DNA of 64,000 nt from a virus (IMGVR_UViG_3300033121_002193:32001-96000), one strand, 5' to 3'. Positions 18,675-32,980 are shown, counted from the stretch's first letter. The notes: generated by a model not told the origin, from the sequence alone. Program-made: numbers and translations.

Positions 18675-20672
18675 ATGTCACAAGTGAAAGATAATTCCCC
18701 ACTCAATTTAAATTTGGCGTCTCATGATGTTCTTGCTGAGCGTATTGAGAAACTAAAAGCGTTAATGCCCGAAGTTTTTACCGAGGGCAAGATTGATTTC
18801 GATCAGCTCAAACGATTCTTGGGTGAATGGGTTGAGCCCGGCAAAGAACGCTTTGGCCTGCAATGGCCTGGTAAAGCTGATTGTATAAAGATCATCCAGC
18901 AAACCAGCGTTGCCACACTGAAACCCTGTCGAGAAGAATCCGTCAACTTTGATGAAACAGAAAACGTATTTATTGAAGGTGAAAATCTTGAAGTTTTAAA
19001 ACTTTTACAGAAGGCCTACTTTGGCAAGATCAAAATGATATACATTGATCCGCCTTACAATACAGGCAAAGAATTCATCTATCCCGACAAATATTCTGAA
19101 ACGCTCGAGTCCTACCTTGCTTATACTGGCCAAGTTGATGATGAAGGGAAAAATTTTTCAACTGATAAAGACGCACAGGGACGTTTTCATACACGTTGGC
19201 TAAACATGATGTATCCACGTCTGCTTCTTGCGCGAAATTTACTCAGAGAAGATGGAGTGATTTTTATCTCTATCGATGACAATGAATTCAGTAATCTTGA
19301 AAATTTATGTAATGAAATCTTTGGTGAAGAAAATCACTTAACAACACTTCATATAAAGGTCAGGTATGAGGGTAAAACATTGGTAGAAGATATGGATTTT
19401 CAAAAGCTTGTTGAGCAAGTTTTAGTCTACGCAAAATCAAAGGCGCAGGTTAAATTGAACAAGCCGAGAAGTTCATACTCTTTTGATAAATTCAGATACA
19501 AAATCATTGAAAAAGGAGTTCCTAAAACAATTAACCTTGGCGGAAAAAAAGTAGAGATATTTTCTAGCAGCCAATTTGAAATTATAGATGCTGGCCCTTC
19601 TAAAGAAAATCTCAAAGAAATATGGGCTTCAGGAAAGATTTTGGATGGGAATTCATCTGGCAGGTTTTTCCGGGATTATCTATCCGGAAGAAGTGAAACC
19701 GACGGCTTAGGTGTACTTTATAAAGTACACGAGATAGGCAGTGATAATCTGTCGTATAGGTACTTTACAGGACCGAAGAGAGAGAGTGCTACAAAGGGAA
19801 GATATTATCAAGGTGTTCCATCGGATGTATTAATTGAAGAGCGGACTGAGCGGGCAATGCCAATAACAACGTTTTATGACTTCGCTGACAACTTTGGAAA
19901 TTGTAGACATGAGGGAAATATAGATTTTCGTGACGGGAAAAAACCCGTCGAATTTTTAAAAACTCTTATCAATTTGATCCATCATGATTCTGATGAGATA
20001 CTGTTGGACTTTTTCGCTGGTTCGGGATCGTTCGCGCATGCAGTATTAGATTTTGCCCAGGAACACGATCTTCGACTCAAGACTATTTCTATACAATTAC
20101 CGGAACCTCTTAAAGAAGAAGGTGAAAGTTCTAAAATTGGCTTTAAGACCATAGCAGATATAGGTAAAGAGCGTTTCCGTAGGGTTATCGGCAAATTGGC
20201 GAACAGCCTTGATGGGCAATTACGATTCTCGAAAAATAAATTTGATCTTGGTTTTAAAGTTTTCAAGCTTGATCGATCCAATTTCAAAATTTGGGAGCAT
20301 CATTCGGAAAAAGCCGACAACTTTGTTGAGCAACTCTCCCTATATGTAGATCATATTGATCCCCAAAGTACCCCTGAAGCTCTCCTTTACGAATTACTCC
20401 TTAAATCGGGCTTTCCACTGACTGCGACGGTTAACCAAATCACCTTGGCGGGCAAACAGGTTTTCTCAATTGATAGTGGCAAGATGTTGCTGTGTTTTGA
20501 GGATCCGATCAAAGAAGAAACCCTTTTAGAGATGCTAAAGCATCAGCCTGCAATAATGGTTGCACTTGATAAGGCCTTTCATGGCAACGATCAGTTAAAA
20601 ACTAACATTAAGTTACAAGCTGAAGCCATAGGTGAATCTGAACACGGCCGAGTGTTATTTAAGACGGTATAA
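18675..20672 (+). CDS. mod: Type III R-M methyltransferase Mod
   Basis: IYIDPPYNTG and LDFFAGSGS motifs; GENLEVLKLL. Confidence 0.93.
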   Translation: MSQVKDNSPLNLNLASHDVLAERIEKLKALMPEVFTEGKIDFDQLKRFLGEWVEPGKERFGLQWPGKADCIKIIQQTSVATLKPCREESVNFDETENVFIEGENLEVLKLLQKAYFGKIKMIYIDPPYNTGKEFIYPDKYSETLESYLAYTGQVDDEGKNFSTDKDAQGRFHTRWLNMMYPRLLLARNLLREDGVIFISIDDNEFSNLENLCNEIFGEENHLTTLHIKVRYEGKTLVEDMDFQKLVEQVLVYAKSKAQVKLNKPRSSYSFDKFRYKIIEKGVPKTINLGGKKVEIFSSSQFEIIDAGPSKENLKEIWASGKILDGNSSGRFFRDYLSGRSETDGLGVLYKVHEIGSDNLSYRYFTGPKRESATKGRYYQGVPSDVLIEERTERAMPITTFYDFADNFGNCRHEGNIDFRDGKKPVEFLKTLINLIHHDSDEILLDFFAGSGSFAHAVLDFAQEHDLRLKTISIQLPEPLKEEGESSKIGFKTIADIGKERFRRVIGKLANSLDGQLRFSKNKFDLGFKVFKLDRSNFKIWEHHSEKADNFVEQLSLYVDHIDPQSTPEALLYELLLKSGFPLTATVNQITLAGKQVFSIDSGKMLLCFEDPIKEETLLEMLKHQPAIMVALDKAFHGNDQLKTNIKLQAEAIGESEHGRVLFKTV

Positions 20673-20682
20673 GGAATTTAGA

Positions 20683-23412
20683 ATGAAAATTAAATTTGAT
20701 GCCTCCCAACAATACCAGCTCGACGCTATTCAATCAGTTGTAAATTTGTTTAATGGCCAACCTATGGCCGGGCAGGAATTTAGAATCAACTCCGTGTTCG
20801 GTTCGTTAAGCATGCCGCACTCCGCACTTGGCTTTGGTAACCGCCTGATTTTGTCAGATGCTAAGCTATTGGAAAATCTTCATGCCGTGCAAGCAAAAAA
20901 TGGTCTTAACCTCTCAGAAAAACTTTTAGGAGAGAGTGTCGAATACGACGCCCAAAATCTCGAATATCGGCTTACCAGCAACGCCAGAGAGAATGGCTGG
21001 TGTGTTCCACATTTTTCCGTTGAAATGGAAACGGGCACAGGCAAGACTTATGTTTATTTACGTAGTATTTTTGAGTTGCATAAAAATTATGGTTTTACCA
21101 AGTTCATTATCGTTGTGCCGACTGTGGCGATTCGTGAAGGCGTTAAAGCCAGTATTGACCTCACAGCTGAACATTTCAAAACGCTTTACGACAACACTCC
21201 ACTCAATCATTGGATTTATGATTCCAAATATGCTTCACGCTTACGTGATTATGCTGCTAGCAATCAAATTCAAATTCTAATCATTAATATCGATGCTTTT
21301 AATAAAAAGGATATCGCAGTCATCCATAACGAACGCGATCAGACATCGGGCAGGAAACCTATTGAGTTTATTCAAGCATGTAATCCTATCGTTATTATTG
21401 ACGAGCCCCAAAATATGGAGTCCGAGATCGCTAGACGAGCGATTACCAGTCTCAATCCGCTTTGTACACTACGCTATTCTGCAACTCACCTTAATCCGTA
21501 CAATGTTGTTTATCGGCTTGGACCTGTAAAAGCCTACGATTTAGGCTTGGTGAAGCGGATCGAAGTTAATTCTATCCTAGAAGAATCCAATTTCAGCAAA
21601 CCTTTTATTCATGTGCAGAGCATACAAAATACCAGCAAGAACAAGATTGTTGCCAAGTTGATTGTTGACGTTGAAGAAAAATTAGGACCACAGCGCAAAA
21701 CCATCAAGGTTGAAAAGCGTGGCGATGACCTTCATCAACTGACAAAGCGTGAGGCTTATAAAGGTTATTTCGTTGAAGAAATTCGTACTGACTATAAAAT
21801 CATTTCCTTCTCCAACGGTGTGACTCTCACAGAAGGACAAATTCACGGCGAACGAATTGATGATCGCTTGCGTATCCAAATTAAGGAAACGGTTAAGGAA
21901 CATTTTGAAAAAGAACTTTATATTTCTAAGCTATCCGAAAGCCAACGACTCAAAGTGCTATCGTTATTTTTTATCGATCGTGTATCAAATTATCGTTTAG
22001 ATAATGGAGGTAAAGGCAAAATCGCCCTTTGGTTTGAAGAAGCTTACGAAGAACTCCGCCATCATGACCGCTATAAATTCTTAGATTTGCCCTCAGTCGA
22101 CAAGGTTCATGACGGATATTTCGCTCAGGATAAAAAAGGCAATTATAAGGATTCGAGGGAAACCACTGAAAATCAGGAAGATCGCGATACTTATGTTGTT
22201 ATCATGAAGGATAAGATGCGTTTGTTGTCCTTTGCTGAGCCATTAAAATTCATCTTTAGTCATAGCGCGCTGCGCGAAGGTTGGGACAATCCTAATGTCT
22301 TTCAGATTTGCACGCTAAATGAAACACGTTCTGAGTTTAAAAAGCGTCAGGAAATTGGCCGTGGCCTCCGTCTTCCTGTGCGAGTGAATGGAGAGCGCTG
22401 TTTTGATAACGTTATTAATCGCCTTACTGTTATTGCCAACGAAAGTTACGATGATTTTGCACGTAACCTGCAAACTGAAATCGAAAAAGAAACGGGTGAG
22501 AAATTTGAAGGACGCATTAGAAATGTGCGGAGTCGCCGACGCGTCCAACTTAAAAAAGGGTGGCGTTTGGATCAGAACTTTGTTGAAATCTGGAATCGTA
22601 TTAAGCACAAAACACGTTATGCAGTTAGGTACTCAACTGAAGAACTTATCGAAAAGAGCGCTAAAGAACTATCCAAGAGCAAACCTATCTCTACTCCTAA
22701 ATTTACCATTCGCAAAAGCGAAATTATTACTACAAAGTCAGGTTTAGAGACTGAACTGCGCTCAGCTCGTGAAGAATTTATTGAATATTTTCACACTCAA
22801 GTTCCTGATTTAATTGGTTACCTTCAATCAAAGACAGAATTGACTCGTGGGACTTTAGCTAAAATCATTATTGAATCAGGACGTATTTCGGAAATTCACA
22901 AAAATCCTCAAAAATTCTTAGAACAAGCCTTAGAAGCCATCCAGCGAACATTGCGCAAGCTTATGGTTGACGGCATTAAGTATGAAAAAATTGATGGTGA
23001 TGAGTATGCAATGATGTTGTTTGAAGAACATTATGAACACAAGGAAATTTATAGTTATCTGGATCGTTTGATAGCTGTTGATCATTCAATTGTTAATTAT
23101 CTTGAATACGAATCAGAAATAGAGAAAAATTTTGCTGAGGCGTTAGATAAGCGTTCTGATATTAAATTGTTTTTCAAATTGCCTAGATGGTTTTTCGTTA
23201 AAACGCCCCTAGGAAATTACAATCCAGATTGGGCCATTGTGAAAGAAGAACAGGGTAAGTTTTTTAAATTATACCTCGTACGTGAAACAAAAGGAAAAAC
23301 AAGCAAGTCTGAATTACGCTCAAGTGAAGAGATGAAAATTGATTGTGGTTCTGCACACTTCAAAGAATTGAATGTCGATTTTGGCTGGATAGAAAATGCA
23401 GAGCAAATTTAG
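20683..23412 (+). CDS. res: Type III R-M restriction endonuclease Res
   Basis: EMETGTGKT, IIDEPQ, REGWDNPN, QEIGRGLR, YNPDWA..ETKG; ATG at 20683 with AAGGA RBS. Confidence 0.93.
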   Translation: MKIKFDASQQYQLDAIQSVVNLFNGQPMAGQEFRINSVFGSLSMPHSALGFGNRLILSDAKLLENLHAVQAKNGLNLSEKLLGESVEYDAQNLEYRLTSNARENGWCVPHFSVEMETGTGKTYVYLRSIFELHKNYGFTKFIIVVPTVAIREGVKASIDLTAEHFKTLYDNTPLNHWIYDSKYASRLRDYAASNQIQILIINIDAFNKKDIAVIHNERDQTSGRKPIEFIQACNPIVIIDEPQNMESEIARRAITSLNPLCTLRYSATHLNPYNVVYRLGPVKAYDLGLVKRIEVNSILEESNFSKPFIHVQSIQNTSKNKIVAKLIVDVEEKLGPQRKTIKVEKRGDDLHQLTKREAYKGYFVEEIRTDYKIISFSNGVTLTEGQIHGERIDDRLRIQIKETVKEHFEKELYISKLSESQRLKVLSLFFIDRVSNYRLDNGGKGKIALWFEEAYEELRHHDRYKFLDLPSVDKVHDGYFAQDKKGNYKDSRETTENQEDRDTYVVIMKDKMRLLSFAEPLKFIFSHSALREGWDNPNVFQICTLNETRSEFKKRQEIGRGLRLPVRVNGERCFDNVINRLTVIANESYDDFARNLQTEIEKETGEKFEGRIRNVRSRRRVQLKKGWRLDQNFVEIWNRIKHKTRYAVRYSTEELIEKSAKELSKSKPISTPKFTIRKSEIITTKSGLETELRSAREEFIEYFHTQVPDLIGYLQSKTELTRGTLAKIIIESGRISEIHKNPQKFLEQALEAIQRTLRKLMVDGIKYEKIDGDEYAMMLFEEHYEHKEIYSYLDRLIAVDHSIVNYLEYESEIEKNFAEALDKRSDIKLFFKLPRWFFVKTPLGNYNPDWAIVKEEQGKFFKLYLVRETKGKTSKSELRSSEEMKIDCGSAHFKELNVDFGWIENAEQI

Positions 23413-28487: not shown

Positions 28488-29381
28488 TCAGTTTGAAATA
28501 ATTAATTTCTTTTTGTAATTTCCTCGTTTTTTAGGTTCTTTTCTGTTTTCCCATTCCTCAACAATGTTTGCAACGTCTTCAACAGACCAAAGCTTGTCTG
28601 TAACTCCAGCCGCCATAGCAGGAGTAATACGCAAAGTTTGATGAATTCTTACAAAGTTATAATGCATAAAATAAAGCGCCATTGAATAAGCGTGATTTTC
28701 TGCTTTTTTAGAAAATGCGTTGGTAAGACGAGTGTGCCGACGATTAGCCATACGTATATTTAAATTCTGACGTTCAATGTAGCTTGTAGATACGCCTTTT
28801 TCATCAGGGTTACCTGCAATAGAACGTTTGGTGCAGCCAGTACATTCAGCTGGACTGTACTTGCCCTTCATTGATTCAGTTGTATTGCCATACATTTTAA
28901 CTAACATTGCGTAATCAATATCAGCGCCAAAAGCGCCCTCAACTGCTTCAAGATAAGCTTTCAGTCCATCGCTGGTTAATTGAATACGAGAAGCCATACG
29001 ACCAGCTAAATCTTGCATAAATTCATTTGCATACTCAGCATCACGTCCACCTACTAACCAAGATGGAATCAATTTTGTTTCTGCATCCATGGCAATCCAT
29101 GTCCATATATCACCTGCGCCTTCTGGGGCTGCTTTAGCTTCAGCGACATTCTTTTGCTTGGCATAACAGAAAGCCCAGATCTCATCGACTTGAATGCGTT
29201 TACAATGCAGATTACGAAGTTTTTTATCTTGGTACTCTGTAACGGCTTGCCCTGCATCTACCATGAACTTAATGACAGTGTTCTTGCTGCAACCAGTTAA
29301 CCTAACAATGGAACGAATTGAATTGCCTTCGGCCATGAGAGCTAAGATTTGAACACGTTTGTCAGTAGCAAGCTTATTCAT
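28488..29381 (-). CDS. IS1-family transposase
   Basis: N-terminal HTH; QVDEIW, LTSDG, STSYIERQNL, RLTNAFSKK and TPAMAAG motifs. Confidence 0.9.
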   Translation of the reverse strand: MNKLATDKRVQILALMAEGNSIRSIVRLTGCSKNTVIKFMVDAGQAVTEYQDKKLRNLHCKRIQVDEIWAFCYAKQKNVAEAKAAPEGAGDIWTWIAMDAETKLIPSWLVGGRDAEYANEFMQDLAGRMASRIQLTSDGLKAYLEAVEGAFGADIDYAMLVKMYGNTTESMKGKYSPAECTGCTKRSIAGNPDEKGVSTSYIERQNLNIRMANRRHTRLTNAFSKKAENHAYSMALYFMHYNFVRIHQTLRITPAMAAGVTDKLWSVEDVANIVEEWENRKEPKKRGNYKKKLIISN

Positions 29382-29426: not shown

Positions 29427-30848
29427 CTATTCATTGGTATTGAGTTGCTCCTGAATCCATTTAGTAGCTGTTTCTTCATCCTGTTCAATTGCTATTTCAA
29501 CAGCTCGTTTGGCTACATTGAGTAATCGCTTACTTTTAACTTTAAGAGCAAAGCTTTCTTCTATTAATACGGAAATTTGACGTTGTTTGTCATAGTCAAT
29601 CAACGGAATAATTAAATCTTTGAGTGTTTCTTGATTCAATCGCTGTTGAACGGAACCTCTGGCCAATCTGTCAATCATTTCGAAGAAAAATTTGCTATTA
29701 AATAGCAGGGTATAAACACTCGGGATATAGTAATCGGGGAGGTAAAAGCACAAAACATTGTCTGAATAAATCGCCCCATTTAGTTCGTCTCTTATTTCAC
29801 CAAAAACTCCTAAAGAACCTACTCGCGCAGTTATTATCCCCCCTTTTTTTGCCATACGAACGAAATTTTTCTTTTTGACGTAATAGTTATCGTCAAACTC
29901 TATTTGGCCACATTTAATGTTGGTACTTCTTATATAAAACGTTAGTCCCTCAATTTCATTTTTTCTGAAGTATTCCGGCGAATACTCTCCGGTATCAATA
30001 TGAATGATAAGATTAGCCAAAGAATCCCATCGATTGTGATGTTTAATGTGGCTCTCAATATCATGATATTTTTTCTGGTAATACTCTGCATCTAATCTGC
30101 CTGTAAGCATGAAAGAATCTTTAAAACTTTTAATGTTTACAGGAGATGTGCTGGGTTCAAAATCATTTAAACCAATCGTTTCGAGCAAAAGGGTTTCAGC
30201 AGAATTATATAATGCTTTGCTTTCAGTTAGCTTATCTTGCGCTTTGTAAAAAGATTTTTCTATTTCTTTTTGAAAACCTTCGGAATATGTAGGAATAATC
30301 ACAGTTTTTAAATCGTCAAGATTTAAACCCTTTTGAATTGCTCCTCTTTCTTTTCTTATTAATAATTCACGACCATATTTACAATTAAGAAAAGTTAATA
30401 TGTAAACTGGATTGATTTTAGAAATTCTTATAACCGTACTTTTACAACTAAAAATAGCAGGTAAATCTTTAGTTTGAACAATACAAGCATTTCCAAGTGT
30501 CCCAACTACTGAAACTAAAATATCTTTTTCTTTAAGAGCATATTTTTTTAATCTTTCATAATCGTCAAATGGAACAAATCTATTCTCACCGTCTTTTAAT
30601 ATAAAAGGCTTTACATCTTGGCCTCTTACGTATCGATATTCTCCATTTTCGACATAATTTTCAGTGTCAAAAGCTGAACCAAAAGGACCAATTAAGAAGT
30701 TGGCAACACTATTAAGTGCCGTATAGTTATTCTTGCAAACTTGTTTCTCGAAAGACAGTAGATGCTTCCTATAATACTCACTATCTATCCTTCCACTATA
30801 TTCTAAATCTGATTTTAAAATTTCTATTATCTCAAGCCCTTCTAACAA
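29427..30848 (-). CDS. hsdS: HsdS-like specificity subunit (two TRDs), probably translated as a -1 fusion to the upstream RM gene
   Basis: RIDSEYY / RLDAEYY repeats, GAIQKGLN, GSVQQRLN; called TTG start lies inside a hairpin with no RBS. Confidence 0.85.
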   Translation of the reverse strand: MLEGLEIIEILKSDLEYSGRIDSEYYRKHLLSFEKQVCKNNYTALNSVANFLIGPFGSAFDTENYVENGEYRYVRGQDVKPFILKDGENRFVPFDDYERLKKYALKEKDILVSVVGTLGNACIVQTKDLPAIFSCKSTVIRISKINPVYILTFLNCKYGRELLIRKERGAIQKGLNLDDLKTVIIPTYSEGFQKEIEKSFYKAQDKLTESKALYNSAETLLLETIGLNDFEPSTSPVNIKSFKDSFMLTGRLDAEYYQKKYHDIESHIKHHNRWDSLANLIIHIDTGEYSPEYFRKNEIEGLTFYIRSTNIKCGQIEFDDNYYVKKKNFVRMAKKGGIITARVGSLGVFGEIRDELNGAIYSDNVLCFYLPDYYIPSVYTLLFNSKFFFEMIDRLARGSVQQRLNQETLKDLIIPLIDYDKQRQISVLIEESFALKVKSKRLLNVAKRAVEIAIEQDEETATKWIQEQLNTNE

Positions 30849-30890
30849 AGCTTTATATTTAGCTTCGTTAGAAGGGCTTAGACGAAAAAA
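30834..30890 (-). promoter_or_regulatory. Putative -1 programmed ribosomal frameshift signal
   Basis: Slippery T TTT TTC (30890-30884), 4-nt spacer, 19-bp stem with 8-nt loop; the -1 frame is open into hsdS. Confidence 0.75.
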
Positions 30891-32980
30891 CTGAATTTTT
30901 CCTTTTTAGCAAATTCGGCAAAAGCTTCGGCAATACCGTCCTTTGTTAGTCCATCGTGATTAAAAAGATCGTGCTTAACTATTAAATGCCCGTGGGTATC
31001 TAACAGGTATTCGTCCAAAATTTGTGGCGTTGCTTCGTAATGGTCAAATGGTACGGCAACTAACGTAACATTATTTTCTTTTTCGGTCGATTTTGAAAAA
31101 TCATTTTTACGGACAAATATTTTTTCACCGCTGTTGTCCTTACTTGACTCTTGCATGGTGGCAAAAAAAATAGGATAATCATCTACCTTTGGGCAAAGCT
31201 TATCGTCCCACTTTTGCACGAACAATACACTTGTTTTAGTTCCGGTATGGGGCTTAAAAACATTTCCGTGCAAGCCCACCACTGCTAATATGCGGCATCG
31301 TTCTGCAATGAAATCACGTATTTGTTTGTCGCCGCTGTTGTTGAAACGACCTTGAGGCAAAACAAGAGCCATGCGCCCACCAGGTTTTAAGAAACTTAAA
31401 TTGCGTTCAATAAATAAGATATCACGGCCCAAAGCACTTTGATATTTTCCGCTTATTTTTTTACCAAGTTCATACTTTGCTATCATGCGCGGTTCTTTGA
31501 TATCACCAGCAAAAGGCGGATTAGCCATTACAACATCAAAGCCAAAATCTCGATTATCATCTTTTGTTAAACGTAATTTACGTAGCTTTTTCCAACCCTC
31601 ACCATAAATATCTAACCAATTTTCGTCTTTTGTTTTTTCATCCCATCGTTCATAATCAAGAGTGTTCAAATGCAATACATTAGTTTGTCCATCACCAGCT
31701 ATCAAATTTAAAGTACGACCAACACGAACTGCTTTTTCATCAAAATCGATAGCAAAAACTTTGCTATTCACATAATCTTCGCAGCGAGCAGATTTTTTTT
31801 CTGTAGTATAAAGATGGTTTTGGCTGGTTCCTTCAATTTGTTGCCATACATGAAAAATTGCGTGCATAGGAAAACCACAACTTCCAGCGGCAGGATCAAT
31901 CAATGTTTCATTTTCTTTAGGATTAAGCATTTTGACGCACATGTCGATAACATAGCGTGGTGTAAAATATTGTCCTTTTTCACCTTTACTGGATTTGTTG
32001 ATTAGATATTCAAAAGCTTCATCAACTACATCGAGATTAGAATTAAAAAGCTTAACTCCTTCAAGGGCAGCTATGCAAACAGCCAAATGGCTAGCTGTTA
32101 ATTGAATTTTTGTGTCATCGTTAAAAACGCCATCCCATTTTTTTCTGGCCTTATCGAATAGATCTTGAATTTTGGCTTTAAGTTCCGTTTCTGTATCGCC
32201 ATAGTTTTTAAAAACTAAATAACGTTTTCTATCGCGACCGCCTTCCAATTCATCATAGAGTTTAGTGAAAATAAGTTTAAACATTTCTTCAAAAACATCT
32301 ACGCCCGCATTGGCTAAAACCTCATCTTCCATTTCTAAAATTAAATCTCGAAGTGATTTTTTCTCATTAACAAGCTTATCTTTTTTGATGAGATCTTCAA
32401 TCGTCCAGCGTTCACTTAGGATGTCAGAGAGTTTTTCATGAGCTGAAGGAATTGTCGGGATGTCTTCAAAATAATTGGGATCTTTACGATGATAAAATGA
32501 AATACTATCGCCATTGCTCCATACGCCTATTGGCGCTCCAGTTGCATTACAATAGGATTTTAATTGTTCTTTGCCATCTTTTAGTTTTGGCTTTTTTAGT
32601 TCTACTAAAATATATGGGGAGGTAGGCTTCATTGCATCGAAAATACAAATATCAGCACGTTTTTTTTCAACGCCAAAAGTTACACCATATTCAAGCTCTA
32701 AACGGCTAATTGGATAACCAAAATCTTCAGTTAATACCATGACATACAATTGACGTATGGCTTCCTCTGGAGTGAGCTTCATTTCTTTGCGGCGTACAAG
32801 ACAATTAATATAAGGTGTAATTTTTCCCTTGATATCTTTTGTAATAATACGACTTTCAAATTCTTGTATTTTGGCGGCTTTAAATTGTGTTAACTTATAT
32901 GCCGAGTCTTTGAATAATTCACTAATATTGTACATATGTTTTATTTTTATAACGGATTGTTTCGAGATTTTAAAAATCAA
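30878..32980 (-). CDS. Fused nuclease (HsdR_N-like) + N6-adenine methyltransferase (type IIB/IIG-like RM subunit)
   Basis: PEEAIRQ..RADI..LVELKK nuclease; GQYFTPR, DPAAGSCGF, ANPPF; likely start at ATG 32935. Confidence 0.88.
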   Translation of the reverse strand: MIFKISKQSVIKIKHMYNISELFKDSAYKLTQFKAAKIQEFESRIITKDIKGKITPYINCLVRRKEMKLTPEEAIRQLYVMVLTEDFGYPISRLELEYGVTFGVEKKRADICIFDAMKPTSPYILVELKKPKLKDGKEQLKSYCNATGAPIGVWSNGDSISFYHRKDPNYFEDIPTIPSAHEKLSDILSERWTIEDLIKKDKLVNEKKSLRDLILEMEDEVLANAGVDVFEEMFKLIFTKLYDELEGGRDRKRYLVFKNYGDTETELKAKIQDLFDKARKKWDGVFNDDTKIQLTASHLAVCIAALEGVKLFNSNLDVVDEAFEYLINKSSKGEKGQYFTPRYVIDMCVKMLNPKENETLIDPAAGSCGFPMHAIFHVWQQIEGTSQNHLYTTEKKSARCEDYVNSKVFAIDFDEKAVRVGRTLNLIAGDGQTNVLHLNTLDYERWDEKTKDENWLDIYGEGWKKLRKLRLTKDDNRDFGFDVVMANPPFAGDIKEPRMIAKYELGKKISGKYQSALGRDILFIERNLSFLKPGGRMALVLPQGRFNNSGDKQIRDFIAERCRILAVVGLHGNVFKPHTGTKTSVLFVQKWDDKLCPKVDDYPIFFATMQESSKDNSGEKIFVRKNDFSKSTEKENNVTLVAVPFDHYEATPQILDEYLLDTHGHLIVKHDLFNHDGLTKDGIAEAFAEFAKKEKFSFFV

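What the first reader, a model, noticed from the sequence alone, without database searches (positions are those of the whole stretch)
29427..32980. R-M system apparently assembled by a programmed -1 ribosomal frameshift (RM and RM-S from one mRNA)
Seen: the RM gene ends AGT TTT TTC GTC TAA, containing the slippery heptamer U UUU UUC. Four nt later is a 19-bp stem (AAGCCCTTCTAACGAAGCT-8 nt-AGCTTTGTTAGAAGGGCTT, one G-U pair). The -1 frame is open (..RLSPSNEAKYKALLEGLE) into the two-TRD specificity ORF, whose called TTG start has no RBS. Known: heptamer plus nearby hairpin is the standard -1 frameshift signal, and BcgI-like type IIB enzymes use two RM per S. Inference: frameshifting yields RM (~690 aa) and RM-S (~1170 aa), setting subunit stoichiometry.
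Basis: partly seen in the sequence, partly recalled or inferred. Interest (0 to 1): 0.85.

Follow-up and report, generated by a model that had tools for sequence, protein, structure and literature searches.

The report
Frameshift signal joining restriction-enzyme subunits
The end of a restriction-methylase gene carries a slippery sequence and an RNA hairpin, conserved in about 70 related loci from many bacterial phyla. The signal most likely makes some ribosomes slip back one base, so one message would yield both the enzyme alone and the enzyme fused to its DNA-recognition module; I found no published case of this in a restriction system.

Summary
RM ends AGT TTT TTC GTC TAA, with an in-phase T_TTT_TTC heptamer at 30890-30884. 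A 19-bp hairpin follows at 30879-30834 (z -7.3). The -1 frame is open into a two-TRD S gene, whose first canonical start (TTG) lies inside the hairpin's 3' arm.

Comparison with relatives supports the interpretation.
- Of 75 unfused loci including the window (RM 68-82% identical in the 80 loci fetched), 71 have S in the -1 frame.
- All 71 have an in-phase heptamer (T_TTT_TTT, T_TTT_TTC, G_GGA_AAG or G_GGA_AAA), an invariant 6-nt spacer and the hairpin.
- The hairpin is 91% paired and shows compensatory changes.
- Synonymous sites in the heptamer are fixed far beyond codon usage.
- The peptide SPFNEAKYKA, upstream of the TTG, shows coding periodicity.
- Natural in-frame RM-S fusions (10 loci) keep T_TTT_TTT, the spacer and a hairpin, and have a -1 stop immediately after the heptamer. 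There, slipping would release RM alone.

Either layout should therefore yield both RM and RM-S. This fits the (RM)2S make-up of BcgI and BsaXI, and the finding that an engineered EcoKI M-S fusion needs free M.

No protein evidence exists, so efficiency and purpose are inferred. No paper describing this was found. This scan has noted the same kind of signal before on other DNA, in other BcgI-like systems.

The parts
30878..32935 (-). RM gene (zero frame), 685 aa from ATG 32935 (the ORF is open from TTG 32980). N-terminal HsdR_N-type PD-(D/E)xK nuclease domain (RADICIFD...LVELKKPK) fused to a gamma-class N6-adenine methyltransferase (NPPF). Ends ..KKEKFSFFV*.
   Evidence: PF13588 2.9e-27; PF02384 4.9e-33; P0003, 685 aa, 100% identical; best solved relative RM.BsaXI 8w0p, 2.9e-22
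30884..30890 (-). Slippery heptamer T_TTT_TTC, in X_XXY_YYZ phase of the RM frame (AGT TTT TTC)
   Evidence: The homologous position in 71 loci carries T_TTT_TTT (41), T_TTT_TTC (4), G_GGA_AAG (25) or G_GGA_AAA (1), always in phase. Synonymous choices lie far from codon usage.
30880..30883 (-). Spacer between heptamer and stem: 4 nt to the first A-U pair here, 6 nt to the conserved GCCC stem start. It overlaps the RM stop TAA at 30880-30878.
   Evidence: 6 nt in 71 of 71 loci
30834..30879 (-). Stimulatory RNA hairpin: 19-bp stem with one G-U pair and an 8-nt loop. 5' arm 30879-30861, loop 30860-30853, 3' arm 30852-30834.
   Evidence: -38.2 kcal/mol, z -7.3; 17 conserved pairs, 91% of cells paired against 32-65% when slid; 45 cells with both sides changed, reached by 0 of 500 shuffles.
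29427..30884 (-). -1 frame read after the slip: linker RLSPSNEAKYKA, then the two-TRD specificity module (TRD1-CR1-TRD2-CR2), with the stop at 29429-29427. The TTG called as start (30848) is an internal Leu codon in this reading.
   Evidence: PF01420, two stretches; codon periodicity upstream of the TTG; natural fusions are colinear (SFF-ELSPSVAPFD..KY..).
30906..30908 (-). Last stop in the -1 frame upstream of the heptamer. It confines any frame change to 30905-30878.

Best explanation
The junction between the RM gene and the S gene is a programmed -1 ribosomal frameshift cassette of the dnaX/IS3 kind.

Proposed mechanism (inferred from the anatomy):
- Ribosomes translating RM reach AGT TTT TTC with tRNA-Phe in both the P and A sites.
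- The hairpin 4-6 nt downstream stalls them.
- A fraction slip back one base. Both tRNAs then re-pair with UUU, and translation continues as CGT CTA AGC..
- The result is a 1169-aa RM-S fusion whose linker is RLSPSNEAKYKA.
- The remaining ribosomes read GTC TAA and release the 685-aa RM.

What the data show:
- The signal, its phase, its spacing and its structure are conserved.
- The linker is translated in the -1 frame, although no start codon precedes it.
- Natural in-frame fusions keep the same cassette, with an immediate -1 stop.

What remains inferred:
- That the slip occurs at a useful rate.
- That free RM plus RM-S assemble into an (RM)2S-equivalent type IIB enzyme, so that frameshift efficiency sets the 2 RM : 1 S ratio.
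For: (1) Window anatomy: an in-phase heptamer, a hairpin with z -7.3, an open -1 frame, and no start before the hairpin's 3' arm.

(2) Of 75 unfused loci (74 from the 80 genome loci fetched, plus the window), 71 have S in the -1 frame and an in-phase heptamer. In 70 the heptamer lies 0 or 3 nt before the RM stop; L057 has it 21 nt before. The fetched loci come from Bacteroidota, Proteobacteria, Firmicutes, Verrucomicrobiota, Ignavibacteria and others, with RM 68-82% identical.

(3) The codon before the heptamer changes its amino acid (S/G/H or V/A/W/P/L) but always ends in T or G respectively. Elsewhere in the same genes NNT is 28% of codons, TTT 67% of Phe codons, NNG 14%, GGA 36% and AAG 21%.

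(4) G_GGA_AAG and U_UUU_UUY are among the most efficient -1 motifs measured in E. coli, and stimulatory structures start 5-8 nt downstream (PMC4066793). Here the spacer is 6 nt in 71 of 71 loci.

(5) Hairpin covariation includes synonymous-synonymous compensations such as CCT/GAA to CCC/GAG.

(6) In the S frame upstream of the TTG, entropy by codon position is 0.67/0.57/1.22. Downstream it is 0.63/0.46/1.14. Tyr in the loop is kept in 69 of 71 sequences with TAT/TAC variation.

(7) In L036 and L042 the -1 frame opens only at the heptamer itself.

(8) All 10 in-frame RM-S fusions with DNA in hand keep NGT TTT TTT, followed by GAN or AAN. This gives a -1 stop TGA or TAA at once, then a 6-nt spacer and a strong hairpin. 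23 of 23 fused proteins, counting the query, have D/E/N/K after (S/C)FF.

(9) A 64%-identical relative has the same cassette.

(10) T and G heptamer classes are interspersed on the RM tree.

(11) Contigs of three other runs show no indel at the T-run.
Against: - No trans-frame protein, ribosome-profiling or reporter data exist, so efficiency is unknown.
- Four of the 75 unfused loci have S in the +1 frame (L007 with T6; L047, L056 and L060 with AGT TTT TCG TAA). A -1 slip cannot serve these, and they remain unexplained.
- The TTG in the 3' arm is conserved, so some independent or coupled initiation of S cannot be excluded.
- The hairpin lies in coding sequence for a conserved peptide, so part of its conservation is protein-level.
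- BcgI and BsaXI themselves have separate S subunits, so a covalent RM-S is not required for this enzyme class.
- The window's T_TTT_TTC with a 4-nt gap to the first pair is slightly off the family norm.
Confidence: 0.84

Rival explanations
1. S is made as a separate subunit by translational coupling. Ribosomes finishing RM melt the hairpin and expose the TTG at 30848, where they start again. The hairpin would be a coupling and occlusion device, and the T-run would only encode the conserved SFF tail.
For: - The TTG TTG (Leu-Leu) in the 3' arm is conserved in most loci.
- EcoKI hsdM and hsdS are translationally coupled across a 1-nt overlap (PMC3510504).
- BcgI and BsaXI have free S subunits (PMC3592470, PMC11997821).
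Against: - The 10 codons upstream of the TTG show full coding periodicity in the S frame and a conserved peptide.
- The heptamer is conserved at synonymous and neighbouring wobble sites and is replaced by a second, unrelated slippery heptamer in the same phase.
- Natural fusions are colinear with the -1 product.
- A few loci lack the TTG there, with the first start 62-191 nt downstream (L018, L022, L025, L030).
Confidence: 0.07
2. The fusion arises by transcriptional slippage. RNA polymerase adds one U in the T-run, so a share of the mRNAs encode an in-frame RM-S.
For: - Most relatives have T7 or T8 runs.
- Homopolymer runs can cause RNA polymerase slippage (PMC5009743; PMC4066793 notes that UUUUUUU is avoided in genes, possibly for this reason).
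Against: - 26 of 71 loci use G_GGA_AAR, which has no homopolymer longer than 3.
- The window has only T6.
- The strict codon phase of the run, the fixed 6-nt spacer and the conserved downstream hairpin are hallmarks of ribosomal, not polymerase, slippage.
- Efficient bacterial transcriptional slippage usually needs runs of about 9 or more (general knowledge).
Confidence: 0.05
3. The frame break is damage or DNA-level phase variation: a once-fused RMS gene was broken by a 1-nt indel in the T-run, or switches on and off by replication slippage.
For: - In-frame RMS relatives exist.
- L007 differs from its class by one T.
- Homopolymer-based phase variation is common in type I and type III R-M genes (PMC3711429).
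Against: - The same break is kept in 71 loci from many phyla, with both ORFs intact (S frame 450-730 codons in most loci).
- Split and fused forms differ by one nt in the spacer, not in the T-run.
- The G_GGA_AAG class has no repeat tract.
- Contigs from three other runs show no length variant.
Confidence: 0.03

Closest known systems
E. coli dnaX tau/gamma -1 programmed frameshift
   Same: - A heptamer followed by a ~6-nt spacer and a stable hairpin.
- Two products sharing an N-terminal body, made in a set ratio from one mRNA.
- The fused relatives here copy the dnaX logic exactly: a -1 slip meets an immediate stop and releases the short form.
   Different: - The heptamer is U_UUU_UUY or G_GGA_AAG, not A_AAA_AAG.
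- An upstream SD-like element is inconsistent here (AAGGAG in 19 of 71 loci).
- In the window the frameshift product is the long form.
- The gene family is unrelated.
IS3/IS911 OrfA-OrfAB and phage lambda G/GT frameshifts
   Same: A -1 slip near the end of the upstream ORF fuses it to a downstream ORF that has no start of its own. The stimulator is a hairpin or pseudoknot. G_GGA_AAG and U_UUU_UUC are used in IS elements (PMC4066793).
   Different: These act in transposases and tail chaperones, not in a defence enzyme. Here the fusion joins a catalytic subunit to its DNA-recognition subunit.
BcgI and BsaXI (type IIB, RM + S, (RM)2S)
   Same: - An RM polypeptide with an N-terminal nuclease and a gamma-class N6A methyltransferase, plus a two-TRD S.
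- The best solved relative is RM.BsaXI.
- Two RM per S (PMC3592470, PMC11997821).
   Different: BcgI and BsaXI make S as a free polypeptide from its own start. Here S has no start of its own and would be tethered to one of the two RM chains. Sequence identity to BsaXI is low.
Single-chain RMS type IIB enzymes (TstI, AloI, CjeI class)
   Same: The -1 product has their R-M-TRD1-CR1-TRD2-CR2 order. Fused relatives of this family are such single chains on paper.
   Different: TstI is a homotetramer of one chain (PMC4027205). Here a second, S-less product is predicted in both split and fused layouts.
Engineered EcoKI M-S fusion (Roberts et al. 2012)
   Same: An M-S fusion made by removing the natural frame offset is functional, but its nuclease activity in vitro needs added free M (PMC3510504). 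The present cassette would supply this same two-product requirement.
   Different: The EcoKI fusion is artificial, in a type I system with a separate HsdR. Natural EcoKI uses translational coupling, not frameshifting.

Membership tests
-1 programmed ribosomal frameshift cassette (dnaX/IS3 type) | X_XXY_YYZ heptamer in the zero-frame phase, allowing both tRNAs to re-pair | tested here: met
   T_TTT_TTC at 30890-30884. An in-phase heptamer is present in 71 of 71 -1-frame loci.
-1 programmed ribosomal frameshift cassette (dnaX/IS3 type) | Stable RNA structure starting 5-8 nt downstream | tested here: met
   19-bp stem, z -7.3. The conserved stem starts 6 nt after the heptamer in 71 of 71 loci. 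91% of cells are paired, with compensatory changes. In the window the first A-U pair is at 4 nt.
-1 programmed ribosomal frameshift cassette (dnaX/IS3 type) | Downstream ORF in the -1 frame without its own initiation signal, translated upstream of any start | tested here: met
   the first start lies in the 3' arm; codon periodicity and the conserved peptide SPFNEAKYKA upstream of it.
-1 programmed ribosomal frameshift cassette (dnaX/IS3 type) | Signal conserved among homologues beyond what the protein requires | tested here: met
   (synonymous and neighbouring wobble sites fixed). (two heptamer types interspersed on the tree). (cassette kept in fused forms).
-1 programmed ribosomal frameshift cassette (dnaX/IS3 type) | Trans-frame protein detected, or efficiency measured | not testable with these tools
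   Only contigs of public runs were available. There are no proteomic or reporter data.
-1 programmed ribosomal frameshift cassette (dnaX/IS3 type) | Upstream SD-like stimulator (specific to dnaX and IS911, not obligatory) | tested here: inconclusive
   Within 18 nt upstream: AAGGAG in 19 loci, AGGA in 14, none in 38 of 71. The window has AAGGAA.
Type IIB R-M, BcgI/BsaXI-like (RM + S) | One polypeptide with a PD-(D/E)xK nuclease domain and a gamma-class N6A methyltransferase (NPPF) | tested here: met
   PF13588 and PF02384. RADICIFD..LVELKKPK and NPPF motifs. RM.BsaXI is the best PDB hit.
Type IIB R-M, BcgI/BsaXI-like (RM + S) | Specificity module with two TRDs and two conserved regions | tested here: met
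   PF01420 in two stretches. Repeated R(I/L)D(S/A)EYY and coiled regions in the sequence.
Type IIB R-M, BcgI/BsaXI-like (RM + S) | No HsdR-type motor subunit belonging to the system | tested here: met
   The flanking genes are not helicases. The only ResIII protein in the window (20632-23412, + strand) sits beside its own PF01555 (N6_N4_Mtase) methylase as a type III pair.
Type IIB R-M, BcgI/BsaXI-like (RM + S) | S produced as a free subunit | tested here: not met
   There is no start codon before the conserved, translated linker. A free S from the internal TTG cannot be excluded.
Type IIB R-M, BcgI/BsaXI-like (RM + S) | Cuts on both sides of a bipartite site; (RM)2S assembly | not testable with these tools
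   This needs biochemistry.
Single-chain RMS type IIB (TstI/AloI-like) | R, M and S in one uninterrupted ORF | tested here: not met
   The window has a -1 frame break, confirmed by contigs of other runs. It is met only in the fused relatives.

The most novel reading that the evidence does not exclude
The same frameshift cassette may work in two mirror-image gene layouts across a very widespread type IIB family. In split loci the slip would make RM-S. In fused loci the slip would meet an immediate stop and make RM. Every member would then produce RM and RM-S from one mRNA. Frameshift efficiency, perhaps near one half, would be the device that sets the two-RM-per-S stoichiometry. S would never exist as a free subunit, which could prevent orphan methylase or mis-assembled nuclease complexes after horizontal transfer. 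With the related signals this scan has noted in other BcgI-like families, recoding would be a general and so far undescribed layer of R-M assembly control.
Probability: 0.5. Interest if true: 0.88.

Novelty: new variant of a known kind. Interest (0 to 1): 0.8.

Why it matters
Programmed frameshifting in bacteria is known for a small number of genes, including dnaX, IS transposases, phage tail chaperones, copA and csoS2. A defence enzyme whose catalytic and DNA-recognition parts are joined by recoding would add a large gene family that moves between phyla. More than 8000 database homologues were found, and at least 579 stretches in species-representative genomes.

It would also explain several things:
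- why thousands of S genes in this family are annotated with doubtful TTG starts or as lacking a start;
- how type IIB enzymes might obtain two RM per S from one transcript;
- how the RM+S and single-chain RMS architectures are connected, being one nucleotide apart in the spacer.

Practically, anyone expressing these enzymes, for new specificities or 2b-RAD-type reagents, needs to know that S may only be made through the slip. Genome annotators should call a joined CDS here.

Tried and rejected
- Literature. Five full-text searches combined frameshifting, recoding or slippery with restriction-modification, type IIB or methylase, and I searched inside three recoding surveys and a 2025 preprint. 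None describes a frameshift in an R-M system. Only open-access papers are covered, and only the first 300,000 characters of the 2016 review are held.
- Reads. Only assembled contigs of public runs could be laid. They show the T6C sequence without indels but cannot reveal rare length variants, transcript ends or slipped mRNAs. The metatranscriptome contig across the junction does not prove transcription.
- Hungry-codon +1 idea. For the +1-frame exceptions (AGT TTT TCG TAA) I tested whether UCG is rare. It is not (7-8 of about 35 Ser codons), so the idea was dropped and the cases stay unexplained.
- SD-like upstream stimulator. It is present in fewer than half of the loci, so it is not claimed.
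- Phage collection. A protein search found only one close relative (64% identical, an unannotated faecal contig). The others were under 35% identical and were not pursued.
- I did not fold the proteins or run a complex prediction. RM-S binding is textbook for this class, and the trans-frame protein exceeds the size limits.
Full report
**1. What is in the window**

The two genes lie on the minus strand. The upstream ORF (30878-32980; probable ATG at 32935, giving 685 aa) has an HsdR_N-type nuclease domain (PF13588, 2.9e-27). It also has an N6-adenine methyltransferase domain (PF02384, 4.9e-33) with NPPF. Its best solved relative is RM.BsaXI, a type IIB enzyme.

The downstream ORF (29427-30848 as called from TTG) is a two-TRD specificity protein (PF01420). 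The neighbours are an IS1-like transposase gene downstream and small unannotated ORFs upstream. The only helicase-type restriction subunit in the window belongs to a separate type III pair about 8 kb away.

**2.

- RM ends AGT TTT TTC GTC TAA. The heptamer T_TTT_TTC (30890-30884) is in the X_XXY_YYZ phase.
- The stem AAGCCCTTCTAACGAAGCT / AGCTTTGTTAGAAGGGCTT (30879-30834) starts 4 nt later. It has 19 pairs with one G-U and an 8-nt loop.
- It folds at -38.2 kcal/mol, against -15.4 +/- 3.1 for shuffles (z -7.3).
- The S frame is the -1 frame of RM. It is open from a stop at 30908-30906 and reads ..FFRLSPSNEAKYKALLEGLE.
- The first canonical start in that frame is the TTG inside the 3' arm.
- Contigs of three other runs cross the junction without any difference: a 70x run of unrecorded kind (which may be this DNA's source), a metatranscriptome and a viral-fraction metagenome. 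T6C is therefore real and not a collapsed T7.

**3. Relatives: split loci**

RM belongs to a very large and unusually conserved family. More than 8000 database proteins matched. The best 120 are 73-89% identical, apart from the window's own protein, although they come from different phyla. Nearly all are about 685 aa and end ..LSFF..LSFF(L/V/R) or ..LSF(V/A)GK.

I fetched 80 loci from species-representative genomes and analysed every junction.

- Of the 80 loci, 74 were unfused and analysable. With the window that makes 75, of which 71 have S in the -1 frame.
- All 71 have an in-phase slippery heptamer. In 70 it lies 0 or 3 nt before the RM stop; L057 has it 21 nt before. The counts are T_TTT_TTT 41, T_TTT_TTC 4, G_GGA_AAG 25 and G_GGA_AAA 1.
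- The distance from the heptamer to the conserved stem start (GCCC) is 6 nt in 71 of 71.
- The residue before the heptamer varies (Ser, Gly or His; or Val, Ala, Trp, Pro or Leu). Its third base is always T or G respectively, as the heptamer requires.
- Elsewhere in these genes NNT is 28% of codons, TTT 67% of Phe codons, NNG 14%, GGA 36% of Gly codons and AAG 21% of Lys codons.
- Two unrelated slippery sequences in the same phase, at the same spacing from the same hairpin, cannot be explained by protein coding.
- Both are among the most efficient -1 motifs measured in E. coli, where stimulatory structures start 5-8 nt downstream (PMC4066793).
- On a tree of RM proteins the two heptamer classes are interspersed. 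This means repeated switching, or recombination of the 3' end.

**4. The hairpin**

The 71 junctions align without gaps downstream of the heptamer.

- The 17 conserved pairs are formed in 91% of cells, against 32-65% when the partner is slid by 1-3 columns.
- 45 cells carry changes on both sides, which 0 of 500 shuffles reach.
- Some compensations are synonymous on both sides: Pro CCT with Glu GAA becomes CCC with GAG. Another pairs a synonymous change with Glu to Asp (L036, L042).
- In Paenibacillus (L055) the peptide differs, but GCCCTTTCAA/TTGAAAGGGC is kept.

The structure is therefore selected as RNA, not only as a by-product of the peptide.

**5. The linker is translated**

In the S frame, the nine codons between the stem start and the TTG (columns 26-52 of the alignment) have entropies of 0.67/0.57/1.22 by codon position. 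The undisputed coding region after it has 0.63/0.46/1.14. The peptide (S)PF(N/D)EA(K/R)Y(K/R/N)A is conserved, and Tyr in the loop is kept in 69 of 71 sequences with TAT/TAC variation.

No ATG, GTG or TTG precedes it in that frame in most loci. In L036 and L042 the -1 frame opens only at the heptamer itself. Translation must therefore enter from the RM frame, within the few codons that contain the heptamer.

**6. Natural fusions tell the same story in mirror image**

A search with the junction of a fused homologue found further relatives with RM and S in one ORF. With the query they make 23 fused proteins. In all 23 the residue after (S/C)FF is D, E, N or K.

For 10 of them I have DNA: L004, L037, L041 and L081-L087.

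- Every one keeps NGT TTT TTT.
- The next codon is GAN or AAN, so a -1 slip meets TGA or TAA at once.
- A strong hairpin starts 6 nt after the heptamer.
- In six loci the hairpin is the same-position stem with new, mutually compensating arms: GCCCATC/GATGGGC, GCTCATC/GATGAGC, GCCTGTC/GATAGGC, and GCTCCTTCGAC paired with GTTGAAGGAGC or GTCGGAGGAGC.
- In the other four it is an inserted palindrome: in L004 and L041 this is translated as GFKNL(A/T)GL, and in L037 and L087 it is another sequence. Where I compared the old stem in L004, its arms no longer pair.
- Split and fused forms differ by one nucleotide in the spacer, not in the T-run.
- The fused polypeptides (SFF-ELSPSVAPFD..KY..) are colinear with the predicted -1 product of split loci (SFF-SLSPFNEAKY..).
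- A 64%-identical split relative has AGT TTT TTT CGA TAA plus the AGCCCATCC/GGATGGGCT stem.

In the fused layout the zero frame gives RM-S and the slip would give RM, as in dnaX. In the split layout it is the reverse.

**7. Mechanism and purpose**

Shown: the signal, its conservation, translation of the linker, and colinearity with the fusions.

Inferred: a substantial share of ribosomes slip, giving RM (685 aa) and RM-S (1169 aa), and the two assemble into an enzyme with two RM per S.

This inference fits three published results:
- BcgI is A2B (PMC3592470).
- BsaXI is (RM)2S (PMC11997821).
- An engineered EcoKI M-S fusion restricts in vivo but needs added free M for nuclease activity in vitro (PMC3510504).

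Single-chain TstI instead forms a homotetramer (PMC4027205), so other solutions exist.

**8. Rivals**

- Coupled re-initiation at the TTG cannot be excluded as a side route. It does not explain the heptamers or the translated linker.
- Transcriptional slippage cannot serve the G_GGA_AAG class or a T6 run.
- Damage or phase variation is contradicted by conservation in 71 loci, by the repeat-free G class, and by the contigs of other runs.

**9. Open points**

- Four loci have S in the +1 frame. L007 has one T fewer than its class and may be an error or a mutant.
- L047, L056 and L060 share AGT TTT TCG TAA and form one clade. The only re-pairing option there is a +1 slip on UUU_U. My test for a rare following codon was negative, so these remain unexplained.
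- An upstream SD-like element is not consistent across loci.

**10. Novelty**

The papers searched describe type IIB enzymes only as RM+S or as single-chain RMS (PMC11997821). The large recoding review and surveys list no R-M case.

This scan has recorded the same kind of signal before on other DNA. Most cases were A_AAA_AAG sites in prophage-borne BcgI-like systems, and one was a U_UUU_UUA site. The present protein family had been noted several times as an ordinary BcgI-like pair, without the frameshift. Those notes are not independent evidence.

- two alternative heptamers in one family;
- the invariant spacer and the covarying stem;
- the coding test of the linker;
- the mirror-image use of the cassette in natural fusions.

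Noticed in passing
L047, L056, L060 (RM stop region); L007: Three Bacteroidales loci form one clade with AGT TTT TCG TAA and S in the +1 frame. The hairpin is kept (CCCCT/AGGGG arms). The shift window is only about 11 nt and allows a +1 re-pairing on UUU_U. UCG is not rare there. L007 has T6 instead of T7, which also puts S in +1.
   Followed up: partly
L004, L041 and proteins P0124, P0146, P0151 (linker after SFF): Fused relatives from Methylococcales carry one or two in-frame copies of a ~30-nt palindrome (GACCTGCCAGG..CCTGGCAGGTC type, translated D-L-x-G-F-K-N-L-x-G-L) between the T-run and the PFNE motif. It looks like a small mobile palindromic repeat that has taken over the place of the hairpin. 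L037 has a longer, different palindromic insert.
   Followed up: partly
window 30878-32935 and loci L001-L080: The RM protein is 68-82% identical in the 80 genome loci fetched, across Bacteroidota, Beta-, Gamma- and Deltaproteobacteria, Firmicutes (Paenibacillus, Oceanobacillus), Verrucomicrobiota, Ignavibacteria and Zetaproteobacteria. The S TRDs differ. This implies very recent and frequent horizontal transfer with specificity swapping.
   Followed up: no
window 28488-29381 (-): A 297-aa ORF directly downstream of S has an N-terminal HTH and weak IS1/IS240 DDE hits, all below the Pfam cut-offs. It may be an IS transposase flanking the R-M cassette.
   Followed up: partly
window 18675-23412 (+): A separate type III-like R-M pair lies here: a PF01555 methylase (665 aa) overlapping a 926-aa ResIII helicase with a C-terminal RE_endonuc domain. 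The region looks like a defence island.
   Followed up: no
window 32935-32980 (-): The ORF list starts RM at TTG 32980 (700 aa). The database protein identical to it starts at the ATG 15 codons later (685 aa), and relatives align only from about residue 10-19.
   Followed up: partly
window 30733-31300: A contig from a wastewater metatranscriptome library covers the junction identically. It is compatible with expression but is not proof, since DNA carry-over is possible.
   Followed up: no
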